Both the position numbers and the translations under genes were made by a program. DNA of 1,029 nucleotides. Source: Escherichia coli. GTDB taxonomy: Bacteria; Pseudomonadota; Gammaproteobacteria; Enterobacterales; Enterobacteriaceae. Shown piece by piece: positions 1-650 of the stretch (its first letter is position 1; each line of letters opens with the position of its first letter). The stretch lies in NCBI RefSeq assembly GCF_003334765.1, contig NZ_QOWT01000089.1; one strand, 5' to 3'. The notes beneath the pieces are model-generated. The model was not told the DNA's origin. It saw nothing but the letters and a program-made list of their open reading frames with translations, and ran no database searches.

Positions 1-650
1 GTGAGTTGACTGGATTTATGTGGGATATTGCACTTGCTGCCCAATCATCATTCAGTCAGCAGAAGCAAAATTAAACCTATCGTGGAGAACAGGGGCGAAC
101 TTGTAATAATTTACTGAAGAGACAATTTTATGCTGACCGCCCAAATCAAAAGTGGGTAACAGATGTCACAGAGTTTAAGGTCGATGGCAGGAAGCTCTAT
201 TTATCACCAATCATGGACCTGTATAATGGAGAAATAGTCTCATATAACCTTACTGAGCGCCCATTAGCATCAATGGTAAAGAGCATGCTATTAGATGCGG
301 TAGAACAACTCAATAAAGACGATAAGCCCTTGTTGCATAGTGATCAGGGGTGGCAATATCAGATGCCTCGTTGGCAACGTTGGTTGAGTGATAATGGCAT
401 AACACAAAGCATGTCCCGACGTGGTAACTGCTTAGATAATGCAGCAATGGAAAGCTTTTTTAGTACTTTAAAATAAGAATGTTACTACCTAAATAAATAC
501 AATAAGTTACATCATCTAAAGCAAGATATAATTGATTACATTGAATACTACAATCACCATCGCATTAAAGAGAAACTCGATGGCATGAGTCCGGTTCAAT
601 ATCGACTTAAACATTTTTCATAGGATGTCCAAGATTTGGGGCGCAGATCA
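1..650 (+). mobile_element. Partial IS3-family insertion sequence (right-hand portion); right boundary tentatively at ~650
   Basis: Transposase orfB homology ends at the TAG at 621-623. IS3-family elements normally end in ...CA within a few tens of bp after orfB, and 626-650 (tgtccaagatttggggcgcagatca) ends in CA. The orfA and frameshift region and the left end lie outside the window. The boundary position is an inference. Confidence 0.5.
3..623 (+). pseudogene. IS3-family (IS150-group-like) transposase OrfB, 5'-truncated by the window edge and interrupted by two in-frame TAA stops (72-74, 474-476); natural stop TAG at 621-623
   Basis: One frame (3,6,9...) translates as [80 protein letters not shown]...[11 protein letters not shown]...[30 protein letters not shown]...IDYIEYYNHHRIKEKLDGMSPVQYRLKHFS*. 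The motifs [57 protein letters not shown] and YYN--R-----G-SP--YR match the IS150-group integrase-core domain as I recall it. Putative DDE residues: D at 162-164, D at 342-344, E at 450-452. The provided ORF 213..476 starts at an internal Met downstream of the first catalytic Asp. Confidence 0.8.

What the first reader, a model, noticed from the sequence alone, without database searches (positions are those of the whole stretch)
626..650. Candidate right inverted repeat of the IS3-family element
Starting 3 bp after the orfB stop, tgtccaagatttggggcgcagatca ends in CA, the terminal dinucleotide characteristic of IS3-family ends. It loosely resembles the IS150 end as I remember it, but that recollection is uncertain. 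If correct, the element ends at 650 and 651-707 is non-IS flanking DNA.
Basis: inference. Interest (0 to 1): 0.2.

Follow-up and report, generated by a model that had tools for sequence, protein, structure and literature searches.

The report
Right end of a dead IS150-like insertion sequence
Bases 626-650 are the right terminal inverted repeat of a truncated, inactivated IS150-type insertion sequence in E. coli 042, ending exactly at 650; this is ordinary mobile-element anatomy, and the DNA beyond it is the tip of another insertion sequence (IS66 family).

Summary
The observation and its main interpretation hold. The window is E. coli 042 chromosome 4919188-4920216, a patchwork of IS fragments. 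Bases 76-650 equal positions 841-1415 of a 1415-bp IS3-family element. Intact copies elsewhere run TGAAGTGCGCCCCAATAGTTAGACA ... TGTCCAAGATTTGGGGCGCAGATCA. The second 25-mer is exactly window 626-650, and it pairs with the left end at 19 of 25 positions (P about 1e-7). In 12 loci, giving 10 different right flanks, similarity stops right after the terminal CA (window 650). Removing the element and one copy of its 5-bp duplication from a plasmid copy gives a sequence found uninterrupted at 100% identity in many E. coli genomes. Copies carry 3-5 bp target duplications. OrfB is 56% identical to IS150 InsK, against 30% for IS3 and 25% for IS2. One correction: 651-721 is not neutral flank. It is the inverted left-terminal 71 nt of an IS66-family element. 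The window copy lacks its left 840 bp (junction with ISEc45) and has a TAA nonsense codon, so this repeat is a fossil. In passing, the element repeatedly sits in a palindrome of IS66 left ends whose half-sites resemble the inner part of its own repeat.

The parts
1..75 (+). Right end of an IS110-family ISEc45 copy, including the last codons of its transposase. The junction with the IS3 fragment is ambiguous by 2 nt because CC at 76-77 fits both sequences.
   Evidence: RefSeq annotation of E. coli 042. Plasmid matches to the IS3 element begin at 76. Comparison of the two ISEc45 right ends in 042.
76..650 (+). 5'-truncated copy of a 1415-bp IS3-family (IS150-group) element, equal to positions 841-1415 of the intact element, with 3 substitutions.
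   Evidence: Base-by-base comparison with L002 2161-3575. Differences at window 343, 475 and 488.
78..623 (+). orfB (DDE transposase) fragment, a pseudogene. In-frame TAA at 474-476, normal stop TAG at 621-623. The HSDQG motif is retained at about 337-351.
   Evidence: Translation. RefSeq marks it 'internal stop; incomplete'. Intact OrfB scores 312.5 bits against NF033516, cut-off 160.
626..650 (+). Right terminal inverted repeat (IRR), 25 nt, ending in CA-3'. Read from the tip inward it is TGATCTGCGCCCCAAATCTTGGACA.
   Evidence: 19/25 complementary to the left repeat of intact copies. Homology break after 650 in 12 loci. Empty-site reconstruction.
651..721 (-). Left-terminal 71 nt of an IS66-family element, inverted, with its GTAAGCG tip at 721. 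This is the target into which the IS3-family element inserted.
   Evidence: 68/71 identical to L002 2090-2160. The uninterrupted version lies just upstream of IS66 tnpA in many genomes. 79% complementary to the IS66 right end at 779-802.
722..737 (-). 16-nt remnant of another IS66-type repeat tip (reverse complement GTAAGCGTTAACGGAG).
   Evidence: 94% complementary to 779-794, and in tandem with 707-722.
779..997 (-). Right end of an IS66-family (ISEc43-like) element with its tip at 779. The TnpC C-terminal codons run 809-997 on the minus strand.
   Evidence: RefSeq annotation. ORF 809-994 on the minus strand. GTAAGCGTCAACGG tip.
998..1029 (+). Left end of a second ISEc45 copy, inserted into the IS66 tnpC 3' end.
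   Evidence: O104:H4 genomes match only 1-997 and carry an uninterrupted ISEc43 there. 042 annotation. Junction comparison.

Best explanation
Bases 626-650 are the right terminal inverted repeat of an IS150-group member of the IS3 family. In an active copy the OrfAB transposase binds the inner part of this repeat (about 626-639, ...TTGGACA when read from the tip). It cleaves and transfers the 3'-OH at the terminal CA (649-650). The two ends are joined into a circle and then inserted with a 3-5 bp target duplication. In this window the repeat is a relic. The element lost its first 840 bp, including the left repeat, orfA and the frameshift site, at a junction with ISEc45, and orfB carries a nonsense codon. 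The copy therefore cannot move on its own. Shown here: identity and exact boundary of the repeat, family and subgroup, and the decay of this copy. Inferred from studies of IS2, IS911 and IS150: the division of labour within the repeat and the circle pathway.
For: Terminal repeats 19/25 complementary in the intact copy, with 5'-TG...CA-3'. Homology break exactly after the CA in 12 loci giving 10 different right flanks. The reconstructed empty site is 100% contiguous over 211 nt in many E. coli genomes, which fixes both boundaries and a 5-bp duplication, TCAAC. Other copies have duplications AAC, TATT, TTGA, CTTA and TTT(T). OrfB scores 312.5 bits against NCBIfam NF033516, IS3 family transposase, cut-off 160. 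RefSeq annotates a programmed frameshift in full-length copies. OrfB is 56% identical to IS150 InsK, against 30% to IS3 InsF and 25% to IS2 InsD. Repeat similarity to IS150 is 16-20/25. Window copy equals positions 841-1415 with TAA at 474-476. Bipartite ends, the CA-3' consensus and the circle pathway including IS150 are described in PMC3299598.
Against: Nothing in the data contradicts it. Limits: no binding, cleavage or transposition was measured. The ISfinder name of the element could not be determined with these tools, and sources call it only 'IS3 family transposase'. The 82%-identical relative (L010/L011) is not independent support for the repeat, because its last ~215 nt are about 100% identical and so probably arrived by recombination.
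Confidence: 0.97

Rival explanations
1. The resemblance is chance and the element really ends elsewhere, for example at 653 or at 721, where some database alignments stop.
For: A few plasmid alignments to the window run to 651, 653 or 721.
Against: Those extensions have explanations. The 721 cases (H21-H23) and L007 share the same IS66 target in the same orientation. The 651/653 cases are 1-3 chance matching bases. Ten different right flanks diverge right after the CA, and the empty site closes perfectly.
Confidence: 0.01
2. The repeat is not a pure fossil. As a solitary right end it can still be bound by transposase supplied in trans from another copy, and could promote one-ended events or rearrangements.
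For: The 25-mer is identical to that of copies that did transpose, as shown by duplications at L006 and L012, which carry the same GATCA tip.
Against: Only 14 of 5426 E. coli genomes hold a copy covering at least 80% of the element, and the records listed for them (H41-H54) do not include 042. A source of transposase in this strain is therefore unlikely. The IS3-family pathway needs two ends to form the circle (PMC3299598).
Confidence: 0.05
3. 626-650 belongs to the neighbouring IS66-family element, or to a composite or MITE-like unit, rather than to the IS3-family element.
For: It directly abuts an IS66 end, and the region is a mosaic of IS pieces.
Against: Uninterrupted IS66 left ends lack this sequence altogether. 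The 25-mer travels with the IS3-family element into sites not recognisably IS66, such as L006 between ccdA and a kinase fragment.
Confidence: 0.01

Closest known systems
IS150 (E. coli K-12, insJ/insK, 1443 bp)
   Same: Two overlapping reading frames with a programmed -1 frameshift. A long OrfA (166 vs 173 aa). OrfB 56% identical over 254 aa. About 25-nt terminal repeats TG...CA sharing the pattern TG-N5-(C/A)-CCC-A/T-rich-(G/C)TTGGACA (16-20/25). Size 1415 vs 1443 bp.
   Different: DNA is only about 59% identical overall and OrfA only 26% identical, so it is a distinct element, not a copy of IS150. The tip is TGATCTG or TGTACTG at the right end and TGAAGTG at the left, against TGTACTG at both ends of IS150.
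IS1397 and ISKpn1 (IS3 family, insert into palindromic units / REP)
   Same: IS3-family elements with a marked preference for inserting inside a short palindrome. The preference is attributed to the transposase itself (PMC1525189). The element here sits in the centre of a palindrome in most sites examined.
   Different: The palindrome here lies in the left end of IS66-family elements, not in REP/PU. No sequence comparison with IS1397 was made.
IS911 / IS2 (best-studied IS3-family ends)
   Same: Ends have an outer cleavage part ending in CA-3' and an inner transposase-binding part. They use a two-step circle pathway in which the junction spacer equals the duplication length. For IS911, OrfA shifts insertion towards targets without IS911 end sequences (PMC3299598).
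   Different: Different subgroups. OrfB is 25% identical to IS2 InsD. None of these biochemical properties was tested for this element.

Membership tests
IS3 family | Imperfect terminal inverted repeats of about 20-40 bp with 5'-TG ... CA-3' tips | tested here: met
   25-nt repeats, 19/25 complementary, TG...CA, in the intact copy L002 2161-2185 / 3551-3575. The right one is window 626-650.
IS3 family | DDE (integrase-core) transposase matching the family profile | tested here: met
   OrfB scores 312.5 bits against NF033516, cut-off 160. The window fragment keeps HSDQG.
IS3 family | orfA and orfB in relative frames 0 and -1, fused by programmed frameshifting | tested here: met
   orfA is 2209-2709 and orfB is open to 3548 in the -1 frame. 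GAAAAAG lies directly before the orfA stop. RefSeq annotates 'programmed frameshift' in five full-length copies. Frameshifting itself was not measured. This part of the element is missing from the window.
IS3 family | Short target duplication (3-5 bp) | tested here: met
   TCAAC (L002, confirmed by the empty site). AAC, TATT, TTGA, CTTA, TTT(T) in other copies. Not testable for the window copy, because its left end is gone.
IS3 family | Copy-out-paste-in transposition through a figure-of-eight and circle intermediate | not testable with these tools
   Known for IS911, IS2, IS3 and IS150 (PMC3299598). Inferred here.
IS150 subgroup of IS3 family | OrfB closer to IS150 than to representatives of other subgroups | tested here: met
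   56% to IS150 InsK, against 30% to IS3 InsF and 25% to IS2 InsD. IS51 and IS407 representatives were not compared, and no tree was built.
IS150 subgroup of IS3 family | Terminal repeats resembling those of IS150 | tested here: met
   Window repeat against IS150 right/left ends: 18/25 and 16/25. GTACA variant: 20/25 and 18/25. P(>=18/25) is about 1e-6 in a fixed register.
A named ISfinder element | At least 95% protein or 90% DNA identity to a registered IS | not testable with these tools
   ISfinder is not available. RefSeq, UniRef and NCBI call the proteins only 'IS3 family transposase' or 'helix-turn-helix domain-containing protein'. Sequence-string searches of papers found nothing relevant.

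The most novel reading that the evidence does not exclude
The IS150-group element may have a transposase-directed target preference not found in the literature searched here. It inserts, in either orientation, in the centre of a palindrome (TGTCCAC - about 10-14 nt - GTGGACA) that lies between the left repeat and tnpA of several IS66-family elements. The half-sites mimic the inner, presumably transposase-binding, part of its own terminal repeat (..TTGGACA). The window's 650/651 junction would be one such event.
Probability: 0.4. Interest if true: 0.3.

Novelty: already known. Interest (0 to 1): 0.08.

Why it matters
It matters little beyond correct annotation. It fixes the exact right boundary (650) of a decayed IS3-family copy in the IS-rich island next to the pic gene of enteroaggregative E. 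coli 042, and it shows that the 'flank' is another IS end. That helps in reading this mosaic region and similar ones in O104:H4 and related genomes. The only wider interest is the apparent habit of this element of landing in a palindrome of IS66-family left ends. If real, it would be another example of palindrome-directed or end-like target choice in the IS3 family.

Tried and rejected
- Naming the element failed. A look-up of exact OrfA/OrfB sequences gave only generic names. Full-text searches for the terminal-repeat strings hit two unrelated papers. A search for ISEc45/ISEc43/IS3 family gave nothing useful.
- Literature searches for a known IS3-into-IS66 target preference found nothing relevant.
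- The Rfam scan of the window gave only sub-threshold hits: AfaR 27.8 bits against gathering score 100 at 681-721, and mir-4878 20.5 bits against 100 at 626-688. I treat both as chance or IS-derived.
- The promoter and terminator scan of 560-820 found nothing. I could not see an obvious -35/-10 pair that would form a junction promoter.
- I first took the 82% relative (L010/L011) as independent support for conservation of the repeat. I rejected that because its last ~215 nt are about 100% identical to the element, which points to recombination.
- Small ORFs overlapping the repeat (625-690 on the plus strand, 596-667 on the minus strand) are regarded as spurious.

Full report
**Where the window comes from**

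The 1029 bases are 100% identical to E. coli 042 chromosome 4919188-4920216 and to about a dozen other genomes. RefSeq annotates three things under it. These are an IS110-like ISEc45 transposase, an 'IS3 family transposase' pseudogene (internal stop, missing N-terminus) and an IS66-family transposase fragment. The region lies in an IS-rich island a few kb from the pic autotransporter gene.

**Checking the observation**

The string is at 626-650 as stated. The orfB frame (78-623) ends with TAG at 621-623, two bases follow, and the 25-mer ends in CA.

**Finding an intact copy**

Plasmid matches to the window begin at 76, and many stop at 650. In pCFSAN004179G (locus L002) the match is the 3' part of a complete IS3-family gene pair.

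An inverted-repeat search on that locus returns arms at 2161-2185 (TGAAGTGCGCCCCAATAGTTAGACA) and 3551-3575 (TGTCCAAGATTTGGGGCGCAGATCA). They are 25 nt long, 76% complementary and 1365 nt apart. The second arm is identical to window 626-650. The chance of at least 19/25 matches in one fixed register is 1.3e-7.

Window 76-650 equals positions 841-1415 of this 1415-bp element, with three substitutions:
- 343, A in the window against C in L002;
- 475, which creates TAA at 474-476 in the window;
- 488.

**Fixing the boundary independently of the repeat**

I fetched further copies, full-length and partial, from chromosomes and plasmids and lined up the junctions.
- Twelve loci hold a right end, and between them they give ten different right flanks. 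All are the same up to the terminal CA and differ from the next base on.
- Eighteen left junctions all begin with TGAAGTGCGCCC, or TGAATTGCGCCC in two cases.
- Target duplications are AAC (L006), TATT (L005), TTGA (L008), CTTA (L012), TTT or TTTT (L003) and TCAAC (L002).

As the decisive test I removed L002 2161-3575 plus one TCAAC and searched the 211-nt product. It is present uninterrupted at 100% identity in many E. coli genomes, immediately upstream of an IS66 tnpA gene. So the element ends at the CA, which is window 650.

**Family and subgroup**

- OrfB of the intact copy scores 312.5 bits against NCBIfam NF033516, IS3 family transposase, whose cut-off is 160.
- RefSeq annotates a programmed frameshift in full-length copies, and GAAAAAG lies right before the orfA stop.
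- OrfB is 56% identical to IS150 InsK over 254 residues. It is 30% identical to IS3 InsF and 25% to IS2 InsD.
- OrfA (166 aa) aligns over its full length with IS150 InsJ at 26% identity.

Read from the tip inward, the ends compare as follows.

| End | Sequence |
|---|---|
| Window right repeat | TGATCTGCGCCCCAAATCTTGGACA |
| Variant right repeat, other copies | TGTACTGCGCCCCAAATCTTGGACA |
| IS150 right | TGTACTGACCCCAAAAAGTTGGACA |
| IS150 left | TGTACTGCACCCATTTTGTTGGACG |

The window repeat matches the IS150 right end at 18/25 and the left end at 16/25. The variant matches them at 20/25 and 18/25. Overall DNA identity to IS150 is only about 59%, so this is a distinct IS150-group element. I could not determine its registered name.

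**What lies beyond 650**

It is outside this element, but it is IS DNA.
- 651-721, reverse-complemented, reads GTAAGCGTAAACCGACTGCC...CCACCTTTTCAAA. It matches the left-terminal 71 nt of the IS66-family element in L002 at 68/71.
- 722-737 is a 16-nt remnant of a further IS66-type tip.
- 779-997 is the right end of an ISEc43-like IS66 element with TnpC codons on the minus strand.
- 998-1029 is the left end of a second ISEc45. O104:H4 genomes, which lack that insertion, match only 1-997.
- 1-75 is the right end of the first ISEc45, and CC at 76-77 fits both partners.

**How it works**

The following is inference from established work on the family. In IS2 and IS911 the ends are bipartite. An outer cleavage part of about 11 bp ends in the family-consensus CA-3', and an inner part is bound by the N-terminal DNA-binding region of OrfAB. 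Transposition goes through a figure-of-eight and a circle whose junction spacer equals the later target duplication, and IS150 uses the same pathway (PMC3299598).

By analogy, 640-650 would be the cleavage part and about 626-639 the binding part. In this window the repeat cannot function in cis, because the left repeat, orfA, the frameshift site and the first part of orfB are gone and orfB has a nonsense codon. Only 14 of 5426 E. coli genomes carry a copy covering at least 80% of the element, and 042 is not among those listed. Action in trans is therefore unlikely as well.

**Seen in passing: where this element lands**

Most insertions lie between the left repeat and tnpA of IS66-family elements, in at least four different members, in both orientations, and at positions shifted by 1-3 nt (L005 against L012 against L020). 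This argues for repeated independent hits.

The site is the centre of a palindrome, for example GGTGCCCAC-CTTTTCAACTA-GTGGACACC. Of 22 distinct outward flanks, 13 have at least 7/8 matches to GTGGACAC starting 5-9 nt from the tip. The same scan at random positions in the same loci gives 0.5%. The half-site TGGACA is also the inner end of the element's own repeat.

There are caveats. The motif was defined after looking at the data. The IS66 relatives share ancestry, so the flanks are not fully independent. The background sample is small. Palindrome targeting by IS3-family members is known for IS1397 and ISKpn1 (PMC1525189). I found no paper on this particular preference, but the library searched is incomplete.

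**Verdict**

This is an ordinary, correctly recognised terminal inverted repeat of a decayed IS150-group element. Both the observation and the interpretation stand, with the correction that the adjoining DNA is the tip of an IS66-family element. Interest is low.

Noticed in passing
window 650/651; loci L002-L021 junctions: The IS150-group element is found again and again in the centre of a palindrome (TGTCCAC / GTGGACA arms) between the left repeat and tnpA of several different IS66-family elements. It occurs in both orientations and at slightly shifted positions. 13 of 22 distinct flanks carry at least 7/8 of GTGGACAC 5-9 nt from the tip, against 0.5% background. The half-site resembles the inner part of the element's own repeat.
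   Followed up: partly
window 1-77 and 998-1029; L001 4880-6075 and 6998-8192: Two ISEc45 (IS110 family) copies bracket the window. Both have the same left junction in the 3' end of an IS66 tnpC. The first copy's right end abuts position 841 of the IS3-family element, with a shared CC. This suggests recombination between ISEc45 copies, or a second ISEc45 target inside the IS3 element.
   Followed up: partly
window 343 (codon 343-345) vs L002 3268: The decayed window copy keeps the conserved HSDQG motif. The 'intact' plasmid copy L002 reads HSAQG, meaning a conserved Asp is replaced, so that full-length copy may itself be catalytically dead. Chromosomal full-length copies (WP_096952743.1) were not checked at this residue.
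   Followed up: no
window 646-650; L003, L004, L005, L008 right ends: The right tip is polymorphic. It is ...GCAGATCA in the window, L002, L006, L007, L012 and L018, and ...GCAGTACA in the chromosomal full-length copies. The latter matches the IS150 tip TGTACTG. Both versions are flanked by target duplications, so both seem to have transposed.
   Followed up: partly
window 707-778: Two IS66-type tips sit in tandem (707-722 and 723-738, 88% alike). They are followed by a 41-nt stretch (738-778) that I could not assign, before the next IS66 tip at 779. The order of insertions here was not worked out.
   Followed up: no
L010 808-2228, L011 808-2228: A related IS3-family element is about 74% identical overall but about 100% identical over its last ~215 nt, so it is a recombinant mosaic. 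Both of its flanks are the tnpA-proximal sides of two different IS66 elements and show no target duplication, which points to recombination between two nested copies.
   Followed up: partly
L002 2156-2160 and 3576-3580: This copy has a 5-bp duplication (TCAAC), confirmed by the empty site. Other copies have 3 or 4 bp, so duplication length varies from 3 to 5 bp within one element.
   Followed up: yes
window 681-721: A sub-threshold Rfam match to the AfaR small RNA (27.8 bits, gathering score 100) falls inside the IS66 left end. It is probably shared IS-derived sequence rather than an sRNA.
   Followed up: no
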